A DNA stretch of 64,000 nt from Clostridia bacterium (GCA_045648505.1 JAZROD010000044.1:80995-144994), one strand, 5' to 3'. Counted from the stretch's first letter, positions 24,939-60,931 are shown. A program made the numbers and translations. Notes: generated by a model not told the origin, from the sequence alone.

Positions 24939-27900
24939 TTATAAATTTCCGTTTATAGGCGAATAAACAGGTTTAATATTTGCGAGTCCGCTAAAGAACA
25001 ACAGTTTATATCCTGTTGCTCCCTCACACTGAAGGGTAACTGTATCGCTGTATGCAGATGTAACAGGAATTGCTTTTGATGCAAGCTGAACCCCTCTCTT
25101 GTTGTATGCTTTTACAATCATAAGGGCACTGTCTTTAACAACCTGTTCGTTAAGATTGATTTCAAGACTTACACCGCTATCTGTCTTTGTTGCCGAAACA
25201 ACCTCTGTTGATGCTAAAGAATATACAGAGAACTTTTTAGCACAGATTATAATACTGTCGCTGTTTACTATGAAATATTCACCATCTGCATTAGGTGTTG
25301 TTGTAAGAGCATCAACACTTCCTTCGTGCATTCTAAAAACTATATAAGAAGCTCTTCCTTTGCTTTCAGCGGGAAGTGCAACCTCAAATTCAAGAAGTCC
25401 TTCTGTTTCGGTTACCTCTTTAGCATTCAGACCTTGCTGCTTTTCGATTTTTATGTCTATATTCTGCACGACCTCATAATCTGTATAGTTTTTCGCCACT
25501 TCATTAGTTATTTCTTCCGGTTGTTCTGCACTTCTTACCAATACATTAACCGTTACCGAATTTACAGTTGTATCTATATAATTTTTATCTTCCTGATCAA
25601 AAGCATTTTCAAGTCCTGCAACTGAAGAAATCAAATTAGTTGAGTCTGCAACTGTGGTTTCCATACGGGTAAAATCAACCGTGCCCAAATCAAAGGTTCT
25701 TCCTGTTAAATCAAGATATACCGATTTTGATAAATAATTGCTGACAAGGGTAGTCATTTGTTTAATACCGCTTCTATAGGTAAACCAAAAGTTTCCGTCT
25801 GCGTCTGTGGTGTATGTACTACCAAGTACATAAACTTCTTTATTTGCGGCAACCTCTCCGTTATATGTAATTTTACCTGTAACTGTAGTGTATGGTGTAA
25901 ATTTAGCATATACTGTAACATCTTCGTCAGGCATAACAGCAGGCGGTAATGGTTCCCAGCCGTTAAACCAATGACCCTCAATAGATGGAGTTTGAGTAAG
26001 GTATCCTATTTTTTCCCCACAACCCACCATCATACTTGCAAACTCTTTTCCGTCTACCATATAGGTTAACTTATGCATATTGATGAAATCAATGCTGTCG
26101 GATACTGTTTGTGTTCTTGTTTCATCATCATTTGCAAAAGTAACATTAACCGACTGATATCCGTGGTTTACAGACGGCAGTACATATGAAACTTTTGGTG
26201 TTATTGGGAAATATGCTCCGTCTTCTATTTTATATTTTGTATAGCCGTTTGCATTAAGAGTTAATGTAACATTTCTGTTTGTTGTCTCAGCATCGCTGTT
26301 GTTAATTACAACACTTGCACTGTAATTTAAAAGTCCGCAAAGTGCCTTGCCGTCCTTTACATAGTATGTTGCATCTTTGCCGTTTAATGCAAGAATATCA
26401 TAATCCCAGTTTTCAAGTTCAAGTTCTGTTACTTCAATACCTTTAAGGTTGTCTATATCTTTAAGTGTTCCACTATCTATGGTAAGAGTATTTTCGTCGG
26501 CATATCCAATGCCTGTAATCTTACTGTAGCCGTTTTTGAATAAAAGTGTTTTGTCTGTTTTTTTATATACAGGTCCGTTCACAGTCCACTCTGTCTGTTC
26601 ATAAAGCTTTACTTCAACTGTATTTGCAGTAAGCAGTGCCATCTGTTCTCTTGTGACGGTACTGTCGTAATCCATAACTATACCCTTCAAAATGCCTGCA
26701 CCGCTTGCTGCTGCCATATATGCTGTAGGGTAATAACCACCATAGTTTTGTGCAACAATTTCATATCCCGTTATTGAAACCAAAACCTTTGCAATCTGTG
26801 CATAGGTCATTTCTGTTTCAACGCCGAATACGCCTGCGCCGTCACCATTTATAACACCTTTGTTGCAAAGATACATAACATATCCGTTAAGGTCTGTTCC
26901 TGTTTGCACATCGCTGAAGTGAGAAGTTGTACTGTTCAATGATTTCGCATATTCTTCTCCACCCGTCATTTTTACAACGATTTCGCAAAGTTCGCCTTTT
27001 GTTATATTGGCTTTAGGGTTATCATAGACATTTGTCATTAAGCCTAAATCGTATGCAATTTTGGCAGACTCCACATATCTTGCATCTGTTATACTGCTTC
27101 TTTCTACCTTTGTAAGCTCTTTTTTGCCCATTAACATACAAAAGTCAGACTTACTCATTTCCTTATTGTTTCTGTTTGAAGGAACTGAATAAACTGCAGC
27201 AACCATCTTTGCTTTTTCTTTATCGTACTTGTTGCTGTTCGAATTGTGCCAGCTTTCTATTGTTGAATTGAAATAATCAATATCAGACTGGTCAACATAT
27301 ATTTTATCGCCTGTGCTGTATTCAACAAGAAGCTGATGATATTCTTTTTCATCATAAGTCAAATAGTATGCAACTGCATAAGATGCAACATTTGAGTCAG
27401 TATTTGTCCATCTTAAAATGTTATCTCCATATGAAAGGTTTGTTGCCTTTGCAACTGTTGGTTTCTTATTGTAATAATATGGACTGCTGTATTGGATATC
27501 ATTGTTAAAATCAAGGTTATCGTCAACAGAGCAAACAGAGAAACGATATTCACCGCTTCCGTGATCTACCATTGAATAAATGAAGTTGTTGTATTCAACG
27601 CCCTGCACATTTTCATAAGGCTCTGTAAAATACCATGTACCGTCAATTTCAACATCATCTTTATAAAGCTTTATGTAATATCCGTCTTCATCGCTTGCAG
27701 GCATAAACTTTATTACACCAATTTCATCGCCCCACTGAAGGTCGCCAAACTCTGTTGGCTCTTCCTCTTCAGGTGTTTCAATAACCGAACCATCCAAAGT
27801 TACATAATCTGAATAAGATGGATTTTTTTCATTAATGTCATAAGTCATTGCGTTAACGGAAATACCTATAATTGCATCTTCAGGATCTAATCCCTCATTC

Positions 27901-28499
27901 TCGGCTTCCCACTCAATATCTTCATAAAGCCACTCAAATTCCGAAGGACCGTCTTCAAAGAAATCAAAATAATTGTCATTTCCCACATCATATGTGCAAT
28001 ATGGATTCATACCCTCGTTTATATCAAAAGTATATCCAAGTACAACTTCGTAAAAATCCGCTCCCTGAACTGCATTCCATGTAACAAGATATTTTTTTGC
28101 ATCAAATTTGATATTAGTTGCTTTTGCAAGTGAAACATTAGGTTTTTTATAAACAAAGTTCTCTGATGACTTAAATGTATACTCGCCATTTCCATTACTT
28201 GAGCCTACTTCAACCCTATATGTACCGCTTCCATTATCAAGAATTTCCTCAAGAAGATAAAGATACAGCTCATCTTCATGATAATTGTCCGTATGATGTG
28301 TCCATTCATCTATAATGCGATTGTCTTTATACACATTAATTCTGTATTCATCAACACCATTTACCAATGTGAACATAAATTCACCTGGATATTCTCCTGT
28401 CCAGCAAACTGTTGCCGGTGCTGTTGCCGCAGATACTGTGAATGTAAGCATCTGCATAAGCATCATTACTGCAATTATAAAACTTAATGCTTTTTTCAT
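24939..28499 (-). CDS. large secreted cell-surface protein with internal duplicated domains and central SLH-like domains
   Basis: Signal peptide MKKALSFIIAVMMLMQMLTFTVSA. Two homologous blocks of about 230 aa (YRINVYKDNRIIDEW... and YYIKLYKDDVEIDGTW...). SLH-like motif HFSDVQTGTDLNGYVMYLCNKGVINGDGAGVFGVETEMTYAQIAKVLV. Confidence 0.6.
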   Translation of the reverse strand: MKKALSFIIAVMMLMQMLTFTVSAATAPATVCWTGEYPGEFMFTLVNGVDEYRINVYKDNRIIDEWTHHTDNYHEDELYLYLLEEILDNGSGTYRVEVGSSNGNGEYTFKSSENFVYKKPNVSLAKATNIKFDAKKYLVTWNAVQGADFYEVVLGYTFDINEGMNPYCTYDVGNDNYFDFFEDGPSEFEWLYEDIEWEAENEGLDPEDAIIGISVNAMTYDINEKNPSYSDYVTLDGSVIETPEEEEPTEFGDLQWGDEIGVIKFMPASDEDGYYIKLYKDDVEIDGTWYFTEPYENVQGVEYNNFIYSMVDHGSGEYRFSVCSVDDNLDFNNDIQYSSPYYYNKKPTVAKATNLSYGDNILRWTNTDSNVASYAVAYYLTYDEKEYHQLLVEYSTGDKIYVDQSDIDYFNSTIESWHNSNSNKYDKEKAKMVAAVYSVPSNRNNKEMSKSDFCMLMGKKELTKVERSSITDARYVESAKIAYDLGLMTNVYDNPKANITKGELCEIVVKMTGGEEYAKSLNSTTSHFSDVQTGTDLNGYVMYLCNKGVINGDGAGVFGVETEMTYAQIAKVLVSITGYEIVAQNYGGYYPTAYMAAASGAGILKGIVMDYDSTVTREQMALLTANTVEVKLYEQTEWTVNGPVYKKTDKTLLFKNGYSKITGIGYADENTLTIDSGTLKDIDNLKGIEVTELELENWDYDILALNGKDATYYVKDGKALCGLLNYSASVVINNSDAETTNRNVTLTLNANGYTKYKIEDGAYFPITPKVSYVLPSVNHGYQSVNVTFANDDETRTQTVSDSIDFINMHKLTYMVDGKEFASMMVGCGEKIGYLTQTPSIEGHWFNGWEPLPPAVMPDEDVTVYAKFTPYTTVTGKITYNGEVAANKEVYVLGSTYTTDADGNFWFTYRSGIKQMTTLVSNYLSKSVYLDLTGRTFDLGTVDFTRMETTVADSTNLISSVAGLENAFDQEDKNYIDTTVNSVTVNVLVRSAEQPEEITNEVAKNYTDYEVVQNIDIKIEKQQGLNAKEVTETEGLLEFEVALPAESKGRASYIVFRMHEGSVDALTTTPNADGEYFIVNSDSIIICAKKFSVYSLASTEVVSATKTDSGVSLEINLNEQVVKDSALMIVKAYNKRGVQLASKAIPVTSAYSDTVTLQCEGATGYKLLFFSGLANIKPVYSPINGNL

Positions 28500-28530
28500 A
28501 AAATCACTCCAAATAAGTTATTTGCTTTAT

Positions 28531-28559
28531 TATACTACAGAAAATGTTTATTTTCAAGC
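28531..28559 (-). promoter_or_regulatory. consensus sigma-A promoter for the surface-protein gene
   Basis: Minus strand reads TTGAAA-17 nt-TATAAT, back-to-back with the plus-strand promoter of hairpin-array copy 1. Confidence 0.5.
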
Positions 28560-28561
28560 TT

Positions 28562-28852
28562 TTTATATTTCTTGCATTTTCTATACCTTTGTGATAAAAT
28601 GATATATTGTTCAGGAGTCGGAATTTATCTAAGTAAATTGCCCTTAGGGCATGAATTGAAATCAGTGATTTCATAAATTGGCGTCACCATGAATTGAGGT
28701 CTGCGACCTCATGAATGAATAAAAATCGCAAAGCGATTTTATCCTTAATGCAAACTTGTTTGCAATTCATGTTGCGAATAGCATCAATTTATTGAGCGAA
28801 AGCGAAAATTCATAACAACGAAGTTGTTAATTATTTTTAAGAAGCATATAAA
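28562..28852 (+). repeat. hairpin-array element family 1, copy 1 (promoter plus about 260-bp repeat, followed by terminator)
   Basis: TTGCAT-17-TGaTAAAAT at 28562-28590. The body has short palindromes (GCCCttaGGGC, GAAATCAgTGATTTC, GAGGTCtgcGACCTC, AAAATCGCaaaGCGATTTT, CAAACttGTTTG) joined by ATGAATT linkers. About 96% identical to the copy at 31216-31497. Confidence 0.7.
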
Positions 28853-28888
28853 TAAAGCAGACAGAAATACTGTCTGCTTTATTTATTA
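28850..28888. terminator. bidirectional intrinsic terminator
   Basis: AAAGCAGACAGaaatacTGTCTGCTTT flanked by A/T runs; closes both copy 1 (+) and membrane gene A (-). Confidence 0.6.
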
Positions 28889-29938
28889 TTTAGTCATAAC
28901 CCATAAATCTACTGGTTCCAAAATAATTTCGCAATCTTTAGCAAAGTTTCCTTTTGTACAAACGGCACACAAATTTGTTTTATTTGAAATTCCTTCAACT
29001 GGCAAAACAAAATATGCACTGCCAACCAATGTTTTATTTTGGTAAATCTTTGCTCTTATTGCACCATCCAAAGACGCATTCTTATATTCTTTCAATAATT
29101 TTTCGACTTCAAAATCAGCACTAACTATCATCGCACTATCGGTATATTCAATCGCAGTTATATTCCCTATTTCTACCTTTTCAAATAATTTTTCAGTGTC
29201 TTCGTCCAAAATTTTCACATTCTGATGTAAATTAGTTTTCATCACATCATATTTTTTCAGTTTGCTTTTTTCTTCATTTATTGAAGCATATATGTTATTG
29301 TTTAAAAAGTTTACAATTGGACCATAAACTGCGTTGTGTTCTCTTACTTTTACATTCTCAGCCTCTGTTTCCAATGCCGTCATTATTCCTGCTACAGGAC
29401 CTGCAAGACCGTTAGCTATTCCTCCCCATGTTGCCCAATTATGTTCTTTTTTTAGAAAAGTATTTCTGTTTCGAGCAACATCCAAGTTTAGTTCAGACAT
29501 ATTTATCTTTGTATATTTTATCTTTCTTTCAAGCATTATTTTGCTTTTTTCTAAACCTCGGTATCCATAACCACACATAGTTTCTTCCAATAGGAAGAAT
29601 TGTTTTTGTCTTTCATCGCTGTTTTCGGCATTTCCTTTTATAAACCCTTCATACAAACAATCTTCAGGCCATTTTTTGTCTACATCAAATATCCCAAAAC
29701 CAATTTTACTTATCAAATATTTATTATAGGCATCCACCGTCACACTTATCATAAATATTAGGGGAGCAAAGAAAAGAATAAGCATAACTATTAAAAATCC
29801 ACCCATATCCAAAAACGACTCTATACCATCTTCAACAAGCACCCCAATCATACTTATAATCCAAAGGATTGAAAACCACCATCCACCTATGAAAGCACCT
29901 TTTTTAGTTCTACTGAAAAAGCAATCTATCCTTTTCAT
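28886..29938 (-). CDS. hypothetical membrane-anchored protein (two N-terminal TM helices plus about 270-aa soluble domain)
   Basis: Track ORF 28886..29977; AAAGGAG RBS before the internal MKRIDCFF start. No recognisable family. Contains WATWGGIANGLAGPVAGIMTALE. Confidence 0.5.
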   Translation of the reverse strand: MKRIDCFFSRTKKGAFIGGWWFSILWIISMIGVLVEDGIESFLDMGGFLIVMLILFFAPLIFMISVTVDAYNKYLISKIGFGIFDVDKKWPEDCLYEGFIKGNAENSDERQKQFFLLEETMCGYGYRGLEKSKIMLERKIKYTKINMSELNLDVARNRNTFLKKEHNWATWGGIANGLAGPVAGIMTALETEAENVKVREHNAVYGPIVNFLNNNIYASINEEKSKLKKYDVMKTNLHQNVKILDEDTEKLFEKVEIGNITAIEYTDSAMIVSADFEVEKLLKEYKNASLDGAIRAKIYQNKTLVGSAYFVLPVEGISNKTNLCAVCTKGNFAKDCEIILEPVDLWVMTK

Positions 29939-29983
29939 GTGCAACTCCTTTACTACTAAAATATCATTATGCATCAATATAAC

Positions 29984-30880
29984 TTAATCATTATCCCCAT
30001 AATATTGTTTATAATGTTCTTTTGTAGCTATAGCATTTATTTTGTGTTGTATTATAATTGCAGGTATAAAAATCCCTAAAAAGATCGAAAGTATAAGTAC
30101 CAGTGCTTTAATATCAGACTGTACTTTCTTTTGGAATGCCAATGTTTCTGTTAATTCCGCTGTTTTATACATCCAATATATGCTATAAAAAGGTACAAAC
30201 CAACACAATAACATTTTTTTAATAGGTGTTCTGTACTCTTTTCCAGTTATATTTAAAAAATATGTAGTTTTGTAAATCCACACACTATAATATATAAAAC
30301 CGAATAACAACCAAAGAATAACAAAGCTAACAAGACTTCTTGAACCACTTTTTATATTCTCCGGTCTGTCAGTGCGTTTAAAATCATTAACCAATGCTAA
30401 AACTGCAGAAATTATTCCGTTTACAATAGTAACAATTGCATCAATTATCACTGGTATAGAAAACACAAATGCAACTATGGCCAATACACAAGATAAAACC
30501 AATGCAACTATTGACAAATTGCTAATCTGATATACGGGCACTAACATATACTGAACTACCGCAATCACACCGCACACAAGACCTAACAAAGGAACCGCGT
30601 TATTATTTCTTTTCCATATTCCAAACACAATTGCTACAATCCCCACAAAGAAAAACAAAACCGGTGTTAAAATTATTTCATTTATATCTGTCATATTTAC
30701 AGTTCTGAAAATGCTCATAACTTGTGAATTTTTTGCCGGAAACCATACATACTGTGCTATAGAAACAGTTTTTCCATTTGCCATTTGCCAAAAAGGCAAA
30801 AACTGAAGAATTATAAGCGCTAAAACCAACCCTGCACAACTTACACTTCCTACCCACATACATTTTTTTAATTTGTTCAT
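29984..30880 (-). CDS. hypothetical polytopic membrane protein with C-terminal DUF4234-like YW repeats
   Basis: GGAGGG RBS before MNKLKK; about 7 TM helices. C-terminal duplicated motif FGFIYYSVWIYKTTYF / FVPFYSIYWMYKTAEL. Confidence 0.5.
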   Translation of the reverse strand: MNKLKKCMWVGSVSCAGLVLALIILQFLPFWQMANGKTVSIAQYVWFPAKNSQVMSIFRTVNMTDINEIILTPVLFFFVGIVAIVFGIWKRNNNAVPLLGLVCGVIAVVQYMLVPVYQISNLSIVALVLSCVLAIVAFVFSIPVIIDAIVTIVNGIISAVLALVNDFKRTDRPENIKSGSRSLVSFVILWLLFGFIYYSVWIYKTTYFLNITGKEYRTPIKKMLLCWFVPFYSIYWMYKTAELTETLAFQKKVQSDIKALVLILSIFLGIFIPAIIIQHKINAIATKEHYKQYYGDND

Positions 30881-30993
30881 AATTACCCTCCGTCTGCGTA
30901 TTACTTTTGTATTACATTCACACATCTTATTGTATCATATAAAACCATTTTATGTCAAGATATAATTTATTACATAATGGAAGGTGTGATAAT

Positions 30994-31176
30994 ATGTTAA
31001 ATGAACCATTAAAAATTAAAAAACGCGGAGAAGATGGAACTAAAATCATTTCTTTAAGAATACGAGAAGACACTCTTGCAGAACTAGATAGACTTTCTAA
31101 CGAATGTAATTATTCACGAAATGAACTTATAAATCTCATAATTAACCACGGAATTAAAAACATTATTATAGAATAA
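30994..31176 (+). CDS. ribbon-helix-helix (CopG/Arc/MetJ-like) DNA-binding protein
   Basis: GGAAGGTG RBS. Encodes MLNEPLKIKKRGEDGTKIISLRIREDTLAELDRLSNECNYSRNELINLIINHG (beta-strand, helix, helix pattern). Divergent from the two membrane genes. Confidence 0.55.
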   Translation: MLNEPLKIKKRGEDGTKIISLRIREDTLAELDRLSNECNYSRNELINLIINHGIKNIIIE

Positions 31177-31215
31177 TTACACAAAGGGCAGTGTTTAAGG
31201 CTGTCCTTTTTTTAC

Positions 31216-31497
31216 TTGCATTTCATATTTATATATGATAAAATATTGTATTATTCAGGAGACGGAATTTATCTAAGTGAACTGCCCTTAGGGCATGAAT
31301 TGAAATCAGTGATTTCATGAATTGGTTTCACCATGAATTGAGGTCTGCGACCTCATGAATGAATAAAAATCGCAAAGCGATTTTATCCTTAATGCAAACT
31401 TGTTTGCAATTCATGTTGCGAATAGCATCAATTTATTGAGCAAAAGCGAAAATTCATAACAACGGAGTTGTTAATTCATTTTATGAAAGGAGTACAT
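31216..31497 (+). repeat. hairpin-array element family 1, copy 2 (promoter plus repeat, directly abutting the yggS RBS)
   Basis: TTGCAT-17-TGaTAAAAT at 31216-31244. Body about 96% identical to copy 1 (about 8 mismatches in about 225 nt). Ends ...AATTCATAACAACGGAGTTGTTAATTCATTTTATGAAAGGAG, then TTG of yggS. Confidence 0.7.
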
Positions 31498-31500
31498 AGT

Positions 31501-32142
31501 TTGAGTATAAAAAGTAATCTTGAAAAGATAAAAAGCACTTTAAACAACGATACTACACTTGTTTGCGTAAGTAAGTATCACACCGAAGAGGAAATTATGG
31601 AGGCTTACAATGAGGGCGTTCGTGATTTTGGTGAAAACAAGGTGCAGGATATGGTTAAAAAGGCGGAAAATCTGCCAAAGGATATAAGATGGCATCTTAT
31701 CGGACACTTGCAGACAAACAAGGTTAAATATATTGTGGGCAAAACCCATCTTGTGCAGTCGGTTGACAGAATTGAACTTGCAGAAGAGCTTAACAAAAGA
31801 TTTGAAAAAGAAAATCTGGTTTGCGACTGTTTAATACAGATAAATTCAACGGGCATTGATTCAAGATTCGGTTGCACACCTGAAACTGCAACAGAATTTG
31901 CAGAAAAATTAAGAGAATTCAAAAGCCTTAATGTTAAGGGAATTATGGGTATGGCTCCAATCTGCGATGACCCTACCGAAAACTTTAAGCTTTTAAAAGA
32001 TATTTATGAAAATTTAAAAGAAAAAGGTATGCTAAACGGTAACATACTCTCTATGGGTATGAGTGATGACTACGAATTTGCACTTAAGTGCGGAAGTAAT
32101 ATGGTAAGAATAGGAAGTAAAATATTCAAGGATGCTGAATAA
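31501..32142 (+). CDS. yggS: YggS-family pyridoxal-phosphate-binding protein (PLP homeostasis; YlmE-like)
   Basis: LSIKSNLEKIK...VCVSKYHTEEEI...GENKVQ...HLIGHLQTNK is the COG0325 signature. TTG start with AAAGGAG RBS preferred; ATG at 31483 is possible. Confidence 0.75.
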   Translation: MSIKSNLEKIKSTLNNDTTLVCVSKYHTEEEIMEAYNEGVRDFGENKVQDMVKKAENLPKDIRWHLIGHLQTNKVKYIVGKTHLVQSVDRIELAEELNKRFEKENLVCDCLIQINSTGIDSRFGCTPETATEFAEKLREFKSLNVKGIMGMAPICDDPTENFKLLKDIYENLKEKGMLNGNILSMGMSDDYEFALKCGSNMVRIGSKIFKDAE

Positions 32143-33460: not shown

Positions 33461-34555
33461 ATGACAAAAATTGATATTTTTTCAGGCTTTTTAGGTGCAG
33501 GAAAAACTACACTTATCAAAAAACTTATTAACGATTCATTCAAAGGCGAAAAGCTTGTTTTGATTGAAAACGAATTTGGCGAAATCGGTATTGACGGTGG
33601 ATTTTTAAAAGAAGCAGGTATTGAAATAACTGAAATGAATTCAGGTTGTATCTGTTGCTCACTTGTGGGTGATTTCAGTAAAGCTCTTGCTGAAGTTCTT
33701 GAAAAATTCACACCTGACAGAATTTTAATCGAACCATCAGGGGTTGGAAAATTAAGTGATGTTAAAAAGGCAGTTGAAGGTATTGAAGGTGCAAAAATCA
33801 ACAGTGCAACTGCAGTTGTTGACGCCACAAAGTGCAAAATGTATATGAAAAACTTCGGCGAATTTTTCAATGACCAGATTGAAAATGCATCAACCATTAT
33901 TTTAAGCCACGCAGACAAAGCATCAGAAGAAAAAATTAAAGAATGTATTCATCTTATAAAAGAACATAATGAAAAAGCCGTTCTTGTTACAACTCCTTTT
34001 ATGGAGCTTGACGGCAAGGTGCTTAAAGATGCTATTGAAAACACATCAACTCTTGAAAAAGAAATGGAAGAACTTGAGCATCATCACCACCATCACGGTC
34101 ACGATTGCCATTGTCACGAGCATGAACACGAGCATCATCACCACCATGATGAAGAATGTACTTGTGGTTGCCATGAACACGAACATCACCACCACGATGA
34201 ATGCGATTGTGGTTGTCATGAACATCATCACGAACACGGTGAAGAATGCTCCTGCGGATGTGGCGGACATCATCACCACCACGCTGATGAAGTTTTCACA
34301 AGCGTTGGTATTGAAACTGCAAAGAAATTCACTAAAGAAGAAATGGAAAGTATTCTCGAAAAACTTTCAAAAGAATCTGAATACGGACTTGTGCTTCGTG
34401 CAAAGGGTATTGTTGCCGGTGAAGAAGATTGGATTCACTTTGACTATGTTCCCGGCGAAGCAGATGTTCGATTCGGCTCAAAAGATGTAATCGGCAGAAT
34501 TTGTGTTATCGGTTCTGAAATTAACAAAGAAAAAATTCAAAAATTATTTGACTGA
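33461..34555 (+). CDS. COG0523 (CobW/ZigA-type) G3E GTPase metallochaperone with long His/Cys-rich insertion
   Basis: Walker A GFLGAGKTTLI, CxCC motif GCICCS, and a 75-aa insert HHHHHHGHDCHCHEHEHEHHHHHDEECTCGCHEHEHHHHDECDCGCHEHHHEHGEECSCGCGGHHHHH. Confidence 0.8.
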   Translation: MTKIDIFSGFLGAGKTTLIKKLINDSFKGEKLVLIENEFGEIGIDGGFLKEAGIEITEMNSGCICCSLVGDFSKALAEVLEKFTPDRILIEPSGVGKLSDVKKAVEGIEGAKINSATAVVDATKCKMYMKNFGEFFNDQIENASTIILSHADKASEEKIKECIHLIKEHNEKAVLVTTPFMELDGKVLKDAIENTSTLEKEMEELEHHHHHHGHDCHCHEHEHEHHHHHDEECTCGCHEHEHHHHDECDCGCHEHHHEHGEECSCGCGGHHHHHADEVFTSVGIETAKKFTKEEMESILEKLSKESEYGLVLRAKGIVAGEEDWIHFDYVPGEADVRFGSKDVIGRICVIGSEINKEKIQKLFD

Positions 34556-34566
34556 GGATTGATTAT

Positions 34567-35520
34567 ATGTTTAAACCAAAAGAAATTCCCGTTTACCTTT
34601 TCACAGGCTTTTTAGAATCAGGTAAAACTTCAGGTATTCAGGGAACTCTTCAGGACGAAAGATTTTACGAGGGCAACGAAAAAACTCTTCTCCTTGTTTG
34701 TGAAGAGGGTGAAAAAGAATTTGACCTTAAAAAAATCCCAAGTGCCTATATGAGTATTGAATATATTGAAAACAAAGAAGACTTAACTGCAAAATATCTT
34801 ACGGGTCTTGAAAAGAAATATAAAATAGACAGAGTTGTTATTGAATACAACGGTATGTGGAATATTGATGATTTATACAACAACCTTCCAAACAACTGGT
34901 TTGTTTATCAGGAAATGATGTTTGCAGACTGCACAACCTTCCTTGTTTACAATCAGAATATGAGAAGTCTTATGTATGACAAAATCAAAGGCTGTCAGAT
35001 GCTTGTTTTCAACAGACCTGAAAATGCAGATAAAGAGCAGTTCCACAAGATTGTCCGAGGTATTTCAAGAAACTGTATTATTGCTTATGAATATGCAGAT
35101 GAGCATCTTGAATATGACGAAATTGAAGACCCATTGCCATTTGACATTAATGCAGATGTGATTGAAATTGCAGACAGAGATTATGCACTCTGGTACCGAG
35201 ATTTTTCAGAGGATATGTCTAAATATTCAGGCAAGAAAATCAAATTCAAAGGAATAACAGGACTAAACAGAAAATTCCCTGAAAATACAATTTTAATCGG
35301 CAGACACGTTATGACCTGCTGTGTTGATGATATTGAATTTAAAGGACTTTTATGTGTTCTTCCTGAAGAACACGACGAAATCAAAAATCGTGACTGGGCA
35401 ACGGTTACGGGATGTATAAACATTCAGTATCACCCACTCTACACTCAGGAAGGTCCAATTCTTTTTGCAGAAGAAATAGAAAAATCCCTTCCACCTGAAG
35501 AAGAGATTGCAACATTTTAA
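34567..35520 (+). CDS. divergent COG0523-like paralog lacking the CxCC motif
   Basis: N-terminus parallels the upstream gene (IPVYLFTGFLESGKTSGI, LLLVCEEGEKEF) but has no GCxCC; C-terminus has MTCCVDD. Confidence 0.45.
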   Translation: MFKPKEIPVYLFTGFLESGKTSGIQGTLQDERFYEGNEKTLLLVCEEGEKEFDLKKIPSAYMSIEYIENKEDLTAKYLTGLEKKYKIDRVVIEYNGMWNIDDLYNNLPNNWFVYQEMMFADCTTFLVYNQNMRSLMYDKIKGCQMLVFNRPENADKEQFHKIVRGISRNCIIAYEYADEHLEYDEIEDPLPFDINADVIEIADRDYALWYRDFSEDMSKYSGKKIKFKGITGLNRKFPENTILIGRHVMTCCVDDIEFKGLLCVLPEEHDEIKNRDWATVTGCINIQYHPLYTQEGPILFAEEIEKSLPPEEEIATF

Positions 35521-58912: not shown

Positions 58913-60352
58913 ATGGCTAAAGATTCAAAAAAATTCGTTGAAGATATTACATCTATGGATGTAGACTTCGCAAAATGGTACACAGATATTGTTAAAAAAG
59001 CAGAACTTGTTGATTATTCAAGAGTTCGCGGTTGTATGATTATCAAGCCTTATGGCTATGCTATCTGGGAAAACATCCAGAAAACACTTGATAAAATGTT
59101 CAAGGATTTAGGACACGAAAATGTTTATATGCCTATGTTCATCCCTGAAAGCTTACTCCAGAAGGAAAAAGACCATGTTGAAGGCTTTGCTCCTGAAGTT
59201 GCCTGGGTAACACACGGTGGTCTTGAACCATTAACAGAAAGACTTTGCGTTCGTCCTACATCAGAAACACTTTTCTGCGACCACTATAAAGATATTATTC
59301 ATTCATACAGAGACCTTCCAAAGCTCTACAATCAGTGGTGTAGCGTTGTAAGATGGGAAAAAACAACAAGACCTTTCTTAAGAAGCCTTGAATTCTTATG
59401 GCAGGAAGGCCACACAGCCCACGCAACTGCAGAAGAAGCTCAGGAAGAAACAATCAGAATGTTAAATGTTTACGCAGATTTCTGTGAAAACGTTTTAGCT
59501 ATGCCTGTTGTTAAAGGTCAGAAAACAGACAAAGAAAAATTCGCAGGTGCAGAACAGACATATACAATCGAAGCTTTAATGCACAGTGGTATTGCTCTTC
59601 AGTCAGGTACATCACACAACTTTGGTGACGGCTTTGCAAAAGCATTTGAAATTCAGTTTGCAGATAAAGACAATCAGCTTAAATATGTTCATCAGACATC
59701 ATGGGGTGTTACAACAAGACTTATTGGTGCAATCATTATGGTTCACGGTGATGATAACGGACTTGTTCTCCCACCAAGAATTGCACCAACTCAGGTTATG
59801 ATTATTCCAATCGCACAGCATAAAGAAGGCGTTTTAGATAAAGCAGACGAGCTTTATAACACTCTTAAAGACACAGTAAGAGTTAAAGTTGATGCATCTG
59901 ACAAGAGCCCTGGATTTAAGTTCAGCGAACAGGAAATGAGAGGTATTCCACTCAGAATTGAAATCGGACCTAAAGACATTGAAAACAATCAGGCAGTTAT
60001 TGCAAGAAGAGATAACGGTGAAAAGGTTGTTGTATCTCTTGACAACATAAAAGAAGAAGTTGAAAAACTTTTAGATGTGGTTCAGAATGCAATGCTTGAA
60101 AAAGCAAGAGCACACAGAGAAGAAAGAACCTACAAAATGACCGACATAGACGAAATGAAGAAACAGCTTGACGAAAACCCGGGCTTCATCAAAGCTATGT
60201 GGTGCGGTGAGCAGGAATGCGAACTTAAAATTAAAGAACTTACAGGCGCAACCTCAAGATGTATCCCATTTGAGCAGGAAGAAATTTCAGATAAATGTAT
60301 CTGCTGCGGAAAGAAAGCAACAAAGATGGTTTACTGGGGAAAAGCATATTAA
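58913..60352 (+). CDS. proS: proline--tRNA ligase (class II, archaeal/eukaryotic type with C-terminal zinc ribbon)
   Basis: AGGAGG RBS before MAKDSKK. Class II motifs and C-terminal [18 protein letters not shown]. Confidence 0.85.
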
Positions 60353-60380
60353 AAAATGCCCTTCGGGGCATTTTTTAATA
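60353..60380 (+). terminator. intrinsic terminator after proS
   Basis: AAAATGCCCTTCGGGGCATTTT followed by tt. Confidence 0.6.
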
Positions 60381-60385
60381 AATGA

Positions 60386-60562
60386 AGCATTCTTTCAGAA
60401 TATGAAGTCGCTTCGCTTATGAAGTGCCTTCGCCATGATGCGTTGCTTCGCAACATTCTTTTGAATGCTTCGCATCATAAACGAGCAAAGCAAGTTTGCT
60501 TCATGCAGGCTTTGCCTGTACTTCATATCGGCAACGCCGATGCTTCATAACAACATTAAGAG
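60386..60562 (+). repeat. hairpin-array element family 2, copy 1 (upstream of the four-helix-bundle gene)
   Basis: Left half has TTATGAAG linkers; right half has GCTTCAT linkers joining GTTGCttcGCAAC, ATGCttcGCAT, CAGGCtttGCCTG and ATCGGCaaCGCCGAT. Ends GCTTCATAACAAC, then RBS and start codon. Confidence 0.6.
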
Positions 60563-60571
60563 GTGATAAAA

Positions 60572-60931
60572 ATGAAAAACGACAAACTTTCAAATCTATC
60601 TATGGATTTTTCTATTAAGATAATTAATTTAGTAAAACATCTTAAAAGCAACAAAGAAACACTTATTTCAAACCAAATAGGCAGAAGCGGAACTTCAATA
60701 GGAGCAAATATTCGTGAAGCTCAATACGCACAAAGCAGAAATGATTTTATTTCTAAACTTCAAATCTCACTTAAAGAAGCAAACGAAACCGACTATTGGC
60801 TTGAATTGTTATACAAAACAAACTACATAACTGAAAATGTATACAAGGACTACACATCTCTCTGCACAGAAATAAGAGTTACTCTTATTGCATCAATAAA
60901 AACAGCCAAACAAAACGCAGAAAGTAAGTGA
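60572..60931 (+). CDS. four-helix-bundle protein (23S rRNA intervening-sequence protein / DGR Avd-like family)
   Basis: QIGRSGTSIGANIREAQYAQSRNDFISKLQISLKEANETDYWLELL matches the TIGR02436-type four-helix-bundle signature. ATG at 60572 after an AAGAGG RBS; track coordinate 60563 is a GTG. Confidence 0.6.
   Translation: MKNDKLSNLSMDFSIKIINLVKHLKSNKETLISNQIGRSGTSIGANIREAQYAQSRNDFISKLQISLKEANETDYWLELLYKTNYITENVYKDYTSLCTEIRVTLIASIKTAKQNAESK

What the first reader, a model, noticed from the sequence alone, without database searches (positions are those of the whole stretch)
28562..31497. Two about 96%-identical direct copies of a promoter-bearing hairpin-array element bracket a 2.4-kb gene block
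The 28562-28852 and 31216-31497 copies share a TTGCAT-N17-TGaTAAAAT promoter and an about 225-nt body with roughly 8 mismatches. The body is not a single long stem but a string of short, unrelated perfect palindromes (GCCCttaGGGC, GAAATCAgTGATTTC, GGTttcACC, GAGGTCtgcGACCTC, AAAATCGCaaaGCGATTTT, CAAACttGTTTG, CAACggaGTTG) joined by a constant ATGAATT linker. The left half carries the ATGAA form and the right half the TTCAT form. Copy 1 runs into an intrinsic terminator and so looks like a free-standing small RNA of about 270 nt; copy 2 runs straight into the yggS RBS and so acts as a 5' leader. The segment between the copies has no integrase or transposase and carries a terminator, two membrane-protein genes and an RHH regulator. 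Such high identity within one window points to recent duplication or recombination, or to strong selection on an RNA or DNA function.
Basis: seen in the sequence. Interest (0 to 1): 0.75.

Follow-up and report, generated by a model that had tools for sequence, protein, structure and literature searches.

The report
Dispersed hairpin-array repeats flanking gene block
The two repeats are copies of a widespread, apparently undescribed family of insertable DNA modules in gut Clostridia and their phages, built from short perfect hairpins joined by one repeated 7-letter word; one module landed in the yggS leader and was later duplicated around a 2.4-kb accessory gene block.

Summary
In detail: 28563-28843 and 31207-31487 are direct repeats, 91% identical overall and 95.5% in the hairpin-array body. 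They are not a private duplication. A covariance model built from 18 arrays in unrelated genomes hits both copies (E 1e-16 and 2e-18). The same architecture occurs in at least 115 stretches from 69 uncultured gut Clostridia genomes and in phage contigs. The architecture is 3-4 copies of [word + hairpin], a centre, then 3-4 copies of [reverse-complement word + hairpin]. Five word classes exist, and the right-half word is always the reverse complement of the left-half word. No Rfam family matches, and I found no paper describing it. Close relatives show the same yggS locus empty (L246, L247), filled once (L242), or filled twice around the block (window, L245). The array is therefore an insertion into the yggS 5' UTR, and the promoter is the native yggS promoter, not part of the element. 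The high identity of the two bodies reflects gene conversion. A third array of another class lies at 60.4 kb, directly upstream of a PF05635 four-helix-bundle gene, which is a recurrent partner of these arrays. Perfect Watson-Crick stems and arrays lying upstream of promoters favour a DNA-level, mobile-element role over a dedicated RNA. The function has not been demonstrated.

The parts
28563..28843 (+). Direct repeat copy 1: duplicated yggS promoter and 5' UTR start (28563-28620) plus class A hairpin array (about 28621-28843)
   Evidence: the repeat finder D1. Covariance model R1 hit 28631-28841, 70.9 bits, E 1e-16. Alignment with empty and filled alleles.
28572..28600 (+). TTGCAT-N17-TGATAAAAT extended -10 promoter: the native yggS promoter, orthologous to that of L242, L246 and L247
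   Evidence: Sequence. Conserved at empty sites L246/L247 directly upstream of yggS. 88% identical to the L242 promoter part.
28613..28617 (+). AGGAG, the former yggS ribosome-binding site, now separated from any start codon
   Evidence: At empty sites the sequence reads TTCAGGAG-N8-ATG yggS.
28848..28886 (.). Bidirectional intrinsic-terminator-like hairpin (17-bp perfect stem). It ends the copy 1 transcript and the convergent 350-aa gene
   Evidence: the repeat finder I6. Terminator scan on both strands. Conserved in L245.
28886..29938 (-). 350-aa predicted membrane protein of the accessory block, no Pfam family
   Evidence: ORF. Pfam gives nothing above cut-off. Only 3 homologues among 5.8 billion proteins.
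29984..30880 (-). DUF4234 membrane protein of the block, absent from the L245 version of the block
   Evidence: Pfam DUF4234 E 3.7e-06. L245 lacks it.
30994..31176 (+). 60-aa ribbon-helix-helix-like protein of the block
   Evidence: Pfam RHH_1 E 0.02, below cut-off. Conserved next to the element in L245.
31183..31209 (+). Terminator-like hairpin after the RHH gene
   Evidence: Terminator scan.
31207..31487 (+). Direct repeat copy 2: second, diverged copy of the yggS promoter region (TTGCAT 31216-31221, TGATAAAAT 31236-31244, AGGAG 31257-31261) plus class A hairpin array (about 31265-31487)
   Evidence: the repeat finder D1. R1 hit 31275-31485, 77.6 bits, E 2e-18. Promoter part 89.8% identical to L245 but 72% to copy 1.
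31486..32142 (+). Ribosome-binding site AAAGGAG at the array's 3' end (31486-31492) and yggS (TTG 31501 to 32142)
   Evidence: Sequence. Pfam Ala_racemase_N E 4e-25. Filled alleles have TTG, empty alleles have ATG.
60351..60548 (+). Third family member in the window: terminator-like hairpin (60351-60378) followed by a class E array with word ATGAAG[C/T] (x3) and [G]CTTCAT (x3)
   Evidence: R1 hit 60376-60550, 46.9 bits. Sequence. Generic scan.
60572..60931 (+). PF05635 (23S rRNA intervening-sequence protein, four-helix bundle) gene, starting about 24 nt after the class E array
   Evidence: Pfam E 8.3e-28. Homologues elsewhere are all preceded by class E or F arrays.

Best explanation
SHOWN. 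The two repeats are members (class A, word ATGAATT) of a large superfamily of dispersed, insertable 'hairpin-array' DNA modules of uncultured gut Clostridia and their phages.

A module has four parts in order:
- a leading hairpin (H0);
- 3-4 units of [constant 7-8-nt word + short perfect hairpin];
- a centre;
- 3-4 units of [reverse-complement word + hairpin].

At this locus one array was inserted into the yggS 5' UTR, between the native ribosome-binding site and the start codon. It supplies a new ribosome-binding site at its 3' end. Later the whole segment 'yggS promoter + array' came to exist twice, bracketing an accessory block (RHH, 350-aa protein, with or without DUF4234). Gene conversion keeps the two array bodies 95.5% identical.

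INFERRED (mechanism).
- The arrays act primarily as DNA. When a strand is single, the hairpins snap back and the left words zip to the right words. This gives a compact ladder of four-way junctions that brings the two ends of the module together.
- This folded or iterated-word structure is the cis site used by an unknown trans-acting factor for insertion, excision and unit gain or loss.
- Arrays attached to a PF05635 four-helix-bundle gene are the complete cassettes. Solo arrays such as those at yggS are gene-less derivatives.
- Because arrays sit in leaders and intergenic spacers, they are co-transcribed passively. They are tolerated because they carry an outward ribosome-binding site, and often a promoter.
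- The direct repeats here allow the block to be lost or gained by homologous recombination.
For: Family membership.
- Model R1, built from 18 arrays of other genomes, hits both copies full-length.
Of these, 115 are true arrays from 69 Clostridia MAGs.
- Phage contigs carry the arrays between terminase, portal and capsid-like genes.

Architecture.
- LLLLRRRR is the dominant arrangement. Left words almost always precede right words; there is only one RRRRLLL case.
- There are five word classes, and the right word is always the reverse complement of the left word. ATGAAGC/GCTTCAT versus GTGAAGC/GCTTCAC differ by a single compensated base.

Insertion.
- The yggS site is empty in L246 and L247, filled once in L242 and filled twice in the window and L245.
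- A relative that lacks the array at yggS (L243) has one elsewhere in the same MAG (L199).
- Eleven [array + PF05635 gene] units lie in unrelated genomic contexts.
- The same class E cassette lies behind tmRNA in L250 and behind another gene in L254.

PF05635 link.
- 12 of 13 PF05635-like ORFs in the fetched DNA are directly preceded by an array.
- All contexts of homologues found by protein similarity alone also have an array upstream.

DNA level rather than RNA.
- Stem pairs are 1869 Watson-Crick, 8 G-T and 15 A-C.
- In L250-type loci the array lies between a terminator and the promoter.
- Only 44% of class A arrays have an upstream -10 element.

Unit gain and loss.

Gene conversion: the array bodies are 95.5% identical against 72% for the promoter parts, while orthologues show the reverse pattern.
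Against: - No transposase, integrase or HUH enzyme was found next to any array.
- No target-site duplication is seen at the yggS junctions, so mobility is inferred only from presence/absence and varied contexts.
- Elements are biased towards the orientation of flanking genes: 40 co-oriented with both neighbours against 11 opposed. About 46 lie within 100 nt of a co-oriented start. This is what an RNA-level function would predict.
- Within left-right word pairs, wobble-compatible variants (49) outnumber mismatch-type variants (24).
- Stems are almost invariant in sequence while loops are saturated with change. Neutral decay of selfish DNA does not predict this.
- PF05635 proteins have no known catalytic activity. 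Part of the association comes from loci that were selected for having class A arrays.
- The ladder fold is a model. Minimum-free-energy folds show left-right helices, but in shifting registers.
Confidence: 0.55

Rival explanations
1. The arrays are functional structured RNAs, either a free-standing RNA of about 270 nt (copy 1) or cis-acting 5' leaders (copy 2). The multi-hairpin or ladder fold would stabilise the mRNA, tune translation, or bind a protein through the repeated single-stranded AUGAAUU words. On this view their spread reflects recruitment of a useful expression module (promoter, leader, ribosome-binding site).
For: - A consensus extended -10 promoter lies directly upstream in 37-50 of 114 class A arrays.
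- Arrays are co-oriented with flanking genes 40:11, and about 46 lie within 100 nt of a co-oriented start.
- The array's 3' end supplies the ribosome-binding site for unrelated genes.
- Copy 1 has both a promoter and a terminator, and this arrangement is conserved in L245.
- Hairpins are kept through double changes: 6 pairs, with 0 of 500 shuffles reaching that.
- The RNA fold z-score is -6.2 for copy 1 and -2.7 for copy 2.
- In phages the arrays sit inside late operons just before ribosome-binding sites.
- Word variants lean towards G-U-compatible ones, 49:24.
Against: - G-U pairs in stems are as rare as A-C (8 against 15 in 1913 pairs), which is unlike known structured RNAs.
- In class A the H0 hairpin starts 0-2 nt after the -10 box, so a transcript from that promoter would lack its 5' arm.
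- L250-type class E arrays lie between a terminator and the promoter.
- The array is not conserved upstream of yggS in relatives.
- Flanking genes share no function.
- Four identical rungs invite misfolding.
- No Rfam match.
Confidence: 0.25
2. The arrays are double-stranded DNA binding-site arrays: eight class-specific 7-8-bp sites, four in each orientation. A small DNA-binding protein would use them as an operator, a centromere-like platform or a nucleoprotein platform. The protein could be the adjacent PF05635 four-helix-bundle protein or, at this locus, the RHH protein. This would resemble the iterated heptads bound by RHH omega/ParR proteins, or the multiple subterminal motifs of IS607 ends.
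For: - Words are identical within an array and change in concert between classes.
- Both orientations are present.
- A PF05635 gene lies directly downstream in 12 of 13 cases, and in all homologue contexts sampled.
- An RHH gene abuts copy 2 and is conserved in L245.
- IS607-family ends use four directly repeated 9-bp motifs without terminal inverted repeats or target duplication (PMC6188088).
- L250-type arrays sit just upstream of the -35 element of the PF05635 gene.
Against: - Spacers between words are always snap-back palindromes whose loop length varies from 3 to 5 nt or more. Word-to-word spacing therefore varies from 16 to 22 bp and is not helically phased. A duplex site array does not need palindromic spacers.
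- Most arrays (about 90%) have no PF05635 or RHH gene nearby.
- The RHH assignment is weak (E 0.02).
- No binding data exist.
Confidence: 0.15
3. This is a plain recent segmental duplication of the yggS upstream region, with no family behind it and palindromes that carry no meaning.
For: The two copies are direct repeats that include the native promoter.
Against: - The same architecture is found in 69 other genomes and in phages.
- The covariance model hits both copies.
- There are empty, single and double alleles.
- The duplication predates the split from L245, and the promoter parts are only 72% identical.
Confidence: 0.02

Closest known systems
REP/BIME and REPIN elements (repetitive extragenic palindromes of Proteobacteria, mobilised by RAYT transposases)
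   Same: Short, non-coding, dispersed intergenic palindromic repeats. They occur in clusters with units in both orientations, can fold as single strands, are co-transcribed with neighbouring genes, and occur in many copies per genome.
   Different: In REPs the hairpin itself is the conserved unit and the linkers vary. Here the linker word is constant, the hairpins within one array are all different, and the two halves are complementary only in the words. No RAYT or Y1 transposase gene was seen. The host range is Clostridia and their phages.
BOX, RUP and Correia/ERIC-type MITE-like elements (pneumococcus, Neisseria, enterobacteria)
   Same: Modular repeats of 100-250 bp inserted in intergenic regions and 5' UTRs. 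They have a variable number of internal modules, strong secondary structure, sometimes carry promoters, and can change expression of the neighbouring gene. Most have no linked transposase.
   Different: No sequence relationship could be tested. No target-site duplication is seen at the one site where empty and filled alleles could be compared. The internal logic (iterated word, unique perfect hairpins, class-level switching of the word) has not been described for these elements, as far as I know.
Integron attC sites
   Same: These are single-strand-folded recombination sites in which conserved, mutually complementary 7-nt core sites (R''/R') flank a variable palindromic interior. They bracket small gene cassettes, often toxin-antitoxin pairs or unknowns. 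Here, arrays bracket the 2.4-kb block, a HepT/MNT pair (L157) and PF05635 genes.
   Different: There is no integron integrase or attI nearby. There are four rungs instead of two boxes, and no conserved extrahelical bases were identified. Arrays are mostly solitary and dispersed, and gene orientation in the bracketed block is mixed.
IS607-family transposon ends (PMC6188088)
   Same: Several directly repeated short motifs at each end. No terminal inverted repeats in the usual sense and no target-site duplication.
   Different: IS607 motifs are 9 bp, helically phased at 10-11 bp and lack hairpin spacers. The elements encode a serine recombinase, and none is seen here.
23S rRNA intervening sequences that carry a PF05635 (S23p) ORF
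   Same: The same small four-helix-bundle gene family travels with an inserted, strongly self-complementary non-coding element.
   Different: Intervening sequences sit inside rRNA helices with the ORF inside the stem-loop, and they are excised by RNase III (established knowledge, not tested here). Here the array lies upstream of the gene, at tRNA, tmRNA or intergenic sites.
Putative mobile promoters (Matus-Garcia et al., PMC3488235)
   Same: Homologous promoter-containing upstream regions found in front of unrelated genes.
   Different: That concept concerns promoter sequence reuse. At the yggS locus the promoter is native and only the array is foreign.

Membership tests
Hairpin-array superfamily, class A (defined here) | Full-length match to a covariance model built from arrays of unrelated genomes | tested here: met
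   R1 hits: 77.6 bits (E 2e-18) at 31275-31485 and 70.9 bits (E 1e-16) at 28631-28841. The plus strand scores higher than the minus strand.
Hairpin-array superfamily, class A (defined here) | Three or more ATGAATT-type words separated by snap-back hairpins, followed by three or more AATTCAT-type words | tested here: met
   Shared hairpins GAAATCnnnGATTTC and AACAACnnnGTTGTT.
Any Rfam 15 RNA family | Score at or above the family's gathering threshold | tested here: not met
   No hits in the window. Only chance-level hits at E up to 10 in 28400-31700. Only a tRNA in 9 related loci.
Conserved cis-regulatory leader or riboswitch of yggS | Presence upstream of orthologous yggS genes across related genomes | tested here: not met
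   Absent in L243 and L244 (about 70% YggS identity) and in L246 and L247 (about 90%), which keep the promoter but not the array.
MITE | Small, non-coding, multi-copy and dispersed, with presence/absence polymorphism | tested here: met
MITE | Target-site duplication flanking the insertion | tested here: not met
   The junctions TTCAGGAGNCG|GAATTTAT... and ...GGAGCAC|ATAAATTGAGC show no duplicated target, only two unrelated AGGAG ribosome-binding sites.
MITE | A related autonomous element encoding a transposase with the same ends | tested here: not met
   No transposase was found beside or between arrays. The only recurrent cargo is PF05635.
REP/REPIN | A conserved imperfect palindrome with a GTAG-type head, and a RAYT gene in the genome | not testable with these tools
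   The hairpins here differ within each array and no GTAG head is seen. Whole genomes could not be searched for RAYT genes.
Integron attC | An IntI integrase and attI nearby, with an ordered cassette array | tested here: not met
   The window genes from 23.8 to 37 kb have no integrase, and arrays are mostly solitary.
Small RNA gene (copy 1) | Own promoter and terminator; a transcript observed | tested here: inconclusive
   The promoter (a duplicated yggS promoter) and the terminator are present and conserved in L245. No expression data are available.
IS607-type ends | Helically phased 9-bp motifs and a serine recombinase TnpA | tested here: not met
   Word spacing is 16-22 bp and variable. No recombinase is present. 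The feature definition comes from PMC6188088.

The most novel reading that the evidence does not exclude
Hairpin arrays together with the PF05635 four-helix-bundle gene form a previously unrecognised kind of mobile cassette. In this reading a small Avd-like protein with no canonical transposase or integrase fold recognises a class-specific 'word ladder', meaning the array folded as single-stranded DNA into stacked four-way junctions. That recognition would promote insertion, excision and unit turnover. The thousands of solo arrays, including the two at yggS, would be its non-autonomous derivatives. They could act as portable recombination sites that capture small gene blocks, in a way analogous to attC sites.
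Probability: 0.15. Interest if true: 0.9.

Novelty: new variant of a known kind. Interest (0 to 1): 0.7.

Why it matters
If the reading is right, uncultured gut and rumen Clostridia and their phages carry a large family of insertable structured DNA modules that is not in Rfam and that I could not find described.

- **Unusual design.** One word is iterated in both orientations between unique perfect hairpins, and all copies of the word switch together between classes.
- **Effect on genes.** The modules sit in promoters, leaders and operon spacers. They can rewire expression, as seen here: a new ribosome-binding site and a changed start codon for yggS, and an orphan promoter-driven transcript.
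- **Effect on genomes.** They seed direct repeats that gain or lose gene blocks, and they probably break metagenome assemblies.
- **PF05635.** The tight link to PF05635 genes offers a concrete, testable handle on a protein family whose role outside diversity-generating retroelements is unknown. It may also bear on how PF05635-bearing intervening sequences move.

Tried and rejected
- Rfam at gathering and at E up to 10 found nothing relevant.
- blastn of copy 2 against plasmid and phage records gave no match.
- The generic pattern ATGAATTG..ATGAATTG..ATGAAT in viral contigs was mostly unrelated tandem repeats. It did, however, lead to L022.
- A pattern specific to the window's variant found nothing in JGI metagenomes.
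- Exact-protein look-ups of the window's YggS, phosphoglycerate mutase and 350-aa protein were not on record, so the source genome could not be named.
- A yggS riboswitch or leader was rejected because relatives lack the array.
- Mini-ORFs (AUG-AAU-UGA), or AUG/CAU as the meaningful part of the word, were rejected. The reading frame is not conserved, and classes C and F have no AUG.
- I read the downstream 'module2' by eye as a sigma-54, sigma-H or sporulation-sigma promoter. The spacings do not fit, so its role remains unexplained.
- A target-site duplication at the yggS junction was not found.
- I looked for a transposase between separated left and right half-arrays. L157 holds a HepT/MNT toxin-antitoxin pair instead, and L165 holds a PF05635 gene.
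- The G-U excess test for the transcribed strand showed no excess in stems.
- I first thought arrays pile up at contig ends. I dropped this because the fetched loci are 8-kb chunks of longer contigs.
- Alignment A5 from the model search mixes both strands and was not used for covariation.
- Literature searches found no description of such arrays.


Full report
**1. The observation**

The region contains two direct repeats, 28563-28843 and 31207-31487. They are 281 nt long and 91% identical without gaps. The array body is 95% identical by blastn and 213/223 identical in my own alignment.

Each copy starts with TTGCAT-N17-TGATAAAAT, at 28572-28600 and 31216-31244, followed by TTCAGGAG. After that comes a string of short perfect palindromes joined by ATGAATT in the left half and AATTCAT in the right half.

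Copy 1 ends at a 17-bp bidirectional terminator-like hairpin, 28848-28886. Copy 2 ends at AAAGGAG-N8-TTG of yggS, 31501-32142.

Between the copies lie:
- a 350-aa protein with no family;
- a DUF4234 membrane protein;
- a 60-aa RHH-like protein (weak, E 0.02);
- a second terminator-like hairpin.

There is no recombinase. A mechanical scan for this kind of architecture finds nothing in 20 shuffles of the window.

**2. It is a family, not a private duplication**

Rfam has no match, either at gathering thresholds or at E up to 10. Plasmid and phage records have none either.

A loose linker pattern in viral contigs was mostly noise, but it revealed contig L022. That contig has three intergenic elements of the same build. 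PHROGs shows that L022 is a phage head module, and the arrays sit before the terminase, portal and capsid-like genes.

One hairpin, GAAATCnnnGATTTC flanked by the word, recurs between the window and L022. I used it as a 20-base pattern. Four of the 119 are chance hits without arrays. The other 115 come from 69 uncultured Clostridia, Oscillospiraceae, Eubacteriales and Acutalibacteraceae MAGs from animal and human guts, with up to 8 stretches per MAG.

The canonical element reads as follows:

[H0 hairpin] CA ATGAATT [GCCnnnGGC] RTGAATT [GAAATCnnnGATTTC] ATGAATT [GAGCCnnnGGCTC] ATGAATT [GCACnnnGTGC] ATTAAAGGCAATTC AATTCAT [hairpin] AATTCAT [GGCnnnGCC] AATTCAT [GACAACnnnGTTGTC] AATTCAT

A covariance model built from 18 such arrays (R1) hits both window copies full-length, at 77.6 and 70.9 bits. 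It also hits L242, the phage arrays and most loci. Membership of the two copies in the family is therefore tested and met.

**3. Anatomy of the family**

- *Order of halves.* Left-type words almost always precede right-type words. LLLLRRRR and close variants dominate, and there is a single RRRRLLL case. Half-arrays also occur on their own.
- *Words.* Words are about 90% invariant: 389 of 434 left words are ATGAATT and 251 of 281 right words are AATTCAT.
- *Hairpins.* Of 452 spacers between like words, 406 are hairpins by a strict test. Their stems contain 1869 Watson-Crick pairs, 8 G-T, 15 A-C and 21 other pairs.
- *Stems versus loops.* Stems are nearly invariant in sequence, while loops differ in both sequence and length in almost every copy.
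- *Compensatory changes.* Six pairs change on both sides in the 18-sequence alignment, with 0 of 500 shuffles reaching that. The H0 hairpin takes at least six unrelated sequences while always remaining a hairpin. The window and L242 differ by GCAAAC..GTTTGC against GCAAGC..GCTTGC.
- *Unit turnover.* Whole [word + hairpin] units are gained or lost between orthologous arrays (L022, L122 and L149; L260 and L261).

**4. Other word classes**

The same build exists with other words:

| Class | Left word | Right word | Where seen |
|---|---|---|---|
| A | ATGAATT | AATTCAT | window (two copies), 115 MAG stretches, phage contigs |
| B | TCGATATG | CATATCGA | six loci |
| C | AGCTAAAT | ATTTAGCT | L129, twice |
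| E | ATGAAGC | GCTTCAT | window 60382-60548; L248-L259 |
| F | GTGAAGC | GCTTCAC | L260, L261 |

In every class the right word is the reverse complement of the left word. Classes E and F differ by one base, and that base is compensated in all copies. This shows that complementarity of the two halves is a constrained property. It also shows that the words of one array evolve in concert.

Complementarity fits two models. One is pairing of left and right words in a single strand, which would give a ladder of four-way junctions. Minimum-free-energy folds do contain such helices, but in shifting registers. The other is one duplex site used in both orientations. Neither model by itself explains why all rungs are identical.

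**5. What happened at the yggS locus**

YggS homologues led to five informative contigs.

| Locus | State of the yggS upstream region |
|---|---|
| L243, L244 (about 70% YggS identity) | mreB\|yggS adjacent; no SLH gene, no array |
| L246, L247 (about 90%) | SLH gene, the same upstream sequence and the same TTGCAT-N17-TGATAAAAT promoter, then TTCAGGAG-N8-ATG yggS; no array |
| L242 (92%) | one array inserted after TTCAGGAGGCG; ends ...AATTCATTTTTATGAAAGGAGCACATAAA before TTG-AGC |
| L245 | array, RHH, 352-aa gene, terminator, array; no DUF4234 gene; 84-91% identical to the window |
| Window | array, three-gene block, array |

Three conclusions follow.

- The array is an insertion into the yggS 5' UTR. 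The alternative is that the empty alleles are precise losses; either way it is a discrete indel. It brings its own ribosome-binding site, and no target-site duplication is visible.
- The promoter and the first AGGAG are native yggS sequence.
- The unit that is duplicated around the block is 'yggS promoter + array'.

The two promoter parts are 72% identical to each other. Each is 88-90% identical to its orthologue: copy 1 to L242, and copy 2 to L245. The array bodies show the opposite pattern, 95.5% between the two paralogues against 81-90% between orthologues. The duplication is therefore older than the split from L245, and the bodies are being homogenised by gene conversion.

The MAG that supplied L243 has a class A array elsewhere in its genome (L199). 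So the positions of arrays are not conserved between relatives.

**6. Genomic contexts**

I oriented elements by the GAAATC hairpin and used crude ORF calls. The flanking genes are (+,+) in 40 cases and (-,-) in 11. About 46 arrays have a co-oriented ORF start within 100 nt.

Neighbouring genes are otherwise unrelated to one another. The one recurrent neighbour is a 116-aa protein, 17 nt downstream in 11 loci. It belongs to PF05635, the 23S rRNA intervening-sequence protein or four-helix-bundle family (E 1e-23). Those 11 units sit in unrelated genomic contexts.

In the fetched DNA, 12 of 13 PF05635-like ORFs are directly preceded by an array. That sample was selected for having class A arrays, so I ran a test free of that bias. 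I took the window's own PF05635 protein (60572-60931; E 8e-28) and searched by protein similarity. At least 7988 proteins reach E 1e-10 or better among the 8000 candidates scored.

All 12 loci returned for two of these homologues carry a class E array after a terminator-like H0 hairpin. They represent three left contexts:
- behind a tRNA in L248 and L249;
- behind tmRNA and smpB in L250-253 and L256-259;
- behind a different gene in L254 and L255, which carry the same cassette in a different left context.

Two viral-contig homologues carry a class F array behind a tRNA.

When a PF05635 gene is present, the conserved 'module2' sequence that normally follows solo class A arrays follows the gene instead. 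Solo arrays therefore look like gene-less derivatives of [H0, array, PF05635, module2] cassettes.

In L157, a HepT/MNT toxin-antitoxin pair lies between a left half-array and a right half-array.

**7. DNA or RNA?**

For an RNA role:
- the orientation bias;
- the position just upstream of ribosome-binding sites;
- consensus promoters (TTGnnn-17-TGnTATAAT) directly upstream of 37-50 of 114 class A arrays;
- the terminator after copy 1;
- a 49:24 excess of wobble-compatible over mismatch-type word variants.

Against a dedicated RNA:
- stems show no G-U tolerance;
- in class A, H0 begins 0-2 nt after the -10 box, so a transcript from that promoter would lack its 5' arm;
- L250-type arrays lie between a terminator and the promoter TTGAAA-17-TGTTACAAT of the PF05635 gene;
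- yggS relatives lack the array;
- the neighbouring genes do not form a coherent regulon.

I therefore favour a DNA-level element that is passively co-transcribed in many places. I cannot exclude that transcripts matter in cis.

**8. Mechanism (inference)**

The shown facts are insertion or indel, dispersal, concerted words, perfect snap-back spacers, unit turnover, the PF05635 partnership and gene conversion. They fit a non-autonomous mobile or recombinogenic module whose cis-acting feature is the iterated word presented between hairpins.

Folding of a single strand would stack four word helices separated by hairpins and would juxtapose the ends of the module. I propose this fold as the substrate for an unknown trans-acting factor. 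The enzyme, the intermediate and the target rules are all unknown.

At this locus the practical consequences are:
- an orphan promoter that drives an array RNA of about 270 nt into a terminator;
- a yggS gene translated from a new ribosome-binding site and a TTG start;
- 281-bp direct repeats that can delete or re-acquire the block.

**9. Comparison with known systems, and novelty**

In lifestyle the closest known elements are REP/BIME/REPIN, BOX/RUP/Correia/ERIC and other MITE-like repeats. In logic the closest are integron attC sites (complementary core sites, folded single strand, cassette bracketing) and IS607 ends, which have several direct motifs and no target-site duplication (PMC6188088). 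In cargo the closest are the PF05635-bearing 23S rRNA intervening sequences.

Defining features of each were tested where possible and are not met: target-site duplication, transposase, integrase, phased motifs and Rfam score. I found no paper describing such arrays, but the searchable library is incomplete.

I file this as a new variant of a known kind, namely dispersed structured intergenic repeats. I give a 15% chance that it is a categorically new type of cassette system centred on PF05635.

Noticed in passing
window 60351-60931: A third hairpin array of a different word class (ATGAAG[C/T] / [G]CTTCAT). It is preceded by a terminator-like hairpin and followed after about 24 nt by a PF05635 four-helix-bundle gene.
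   Followed up: yes
L127, L136, L159, L167, L176 (class B); L129 1978-2110 and 4487-4660 (class C); L260/L261 about 990-1200 (class F): Arrays with the same architecture but other words: TCGATATG/CATATCGA, AGCTAAAT/ATTTAGCT and GTGAAGC/GCTTCAC. Different classes can sit in tandem, as with class B followed by class A in L176.
   Followed up: partly
L157 5150-6472: A HepT-like RNase and nucleotidyltransferase toxin-antitoxin pair lies between a left half-array and a right half-array, as if it were cargo inside a split array.
   Followed up: partly
downstream of class A arrays, e.g. L126 5677-5720, L147, L160, L176, L237: A conserved 30-nt 'module2' (GGCATCTAAATCGTTCACTGATTYTATAAT, plus two variants) follows solo arrays. 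When a PF05635 gene is present, module2 follows the gene instead. Its role (promoter, terminator or element end) is unexplained.
   Followed up: partly
L137, L177, L232; L189, L225, L233 (within 100 nt downstream of arrays): Other dispersed repeats sit next to arrays (GCCTTCCCCTTGAGGGGAAGG... and GTAGGG...CCCTAC types). The intergenic regions of these MAGs appear to accumulate several repeat families.
   Followed up: no
window 24939-28499: A 1186-aa protein with an S-layer-homology domain lies between mreB and yggS in the window lineage (also in L242, L246 and L247). In more distant relatives (L243, L244) mreB and yggS are adjacent.
   Followed up: partly
window 31501 compared with L246 and L247: The yggS start codon is ATG at empty sites and TTG at array-filled sites, and the ribosome-binding site is replaced by one at the array's 3' end.
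   Followed up: yes
L260 compared with L261 (about 1000-1200): At the same tRNA / PF05635 locus in two viral contigs, L261 has lost most of the left half of the array. This is unit-level deletion.
   Followed up: partly
window 33461-35520: Two adjacent CobW-family GTPase genes, the second fused to a DUF1980 C-terminal domain, lie downstream of yggS and a phosphoglycerate-mutase-like gene.
   Followed up: no
L250-L253, L256-L259 about 1100-1300; L248 about 1150-1290: Class E array plus PF05635 cassettes sit immediately after tmRNA (next to smpB) or a tRNA gene. These are classic landing sites for mobile DNA, yet no integrase is present within the 1.5-kb flanks.
   Followed up: partly
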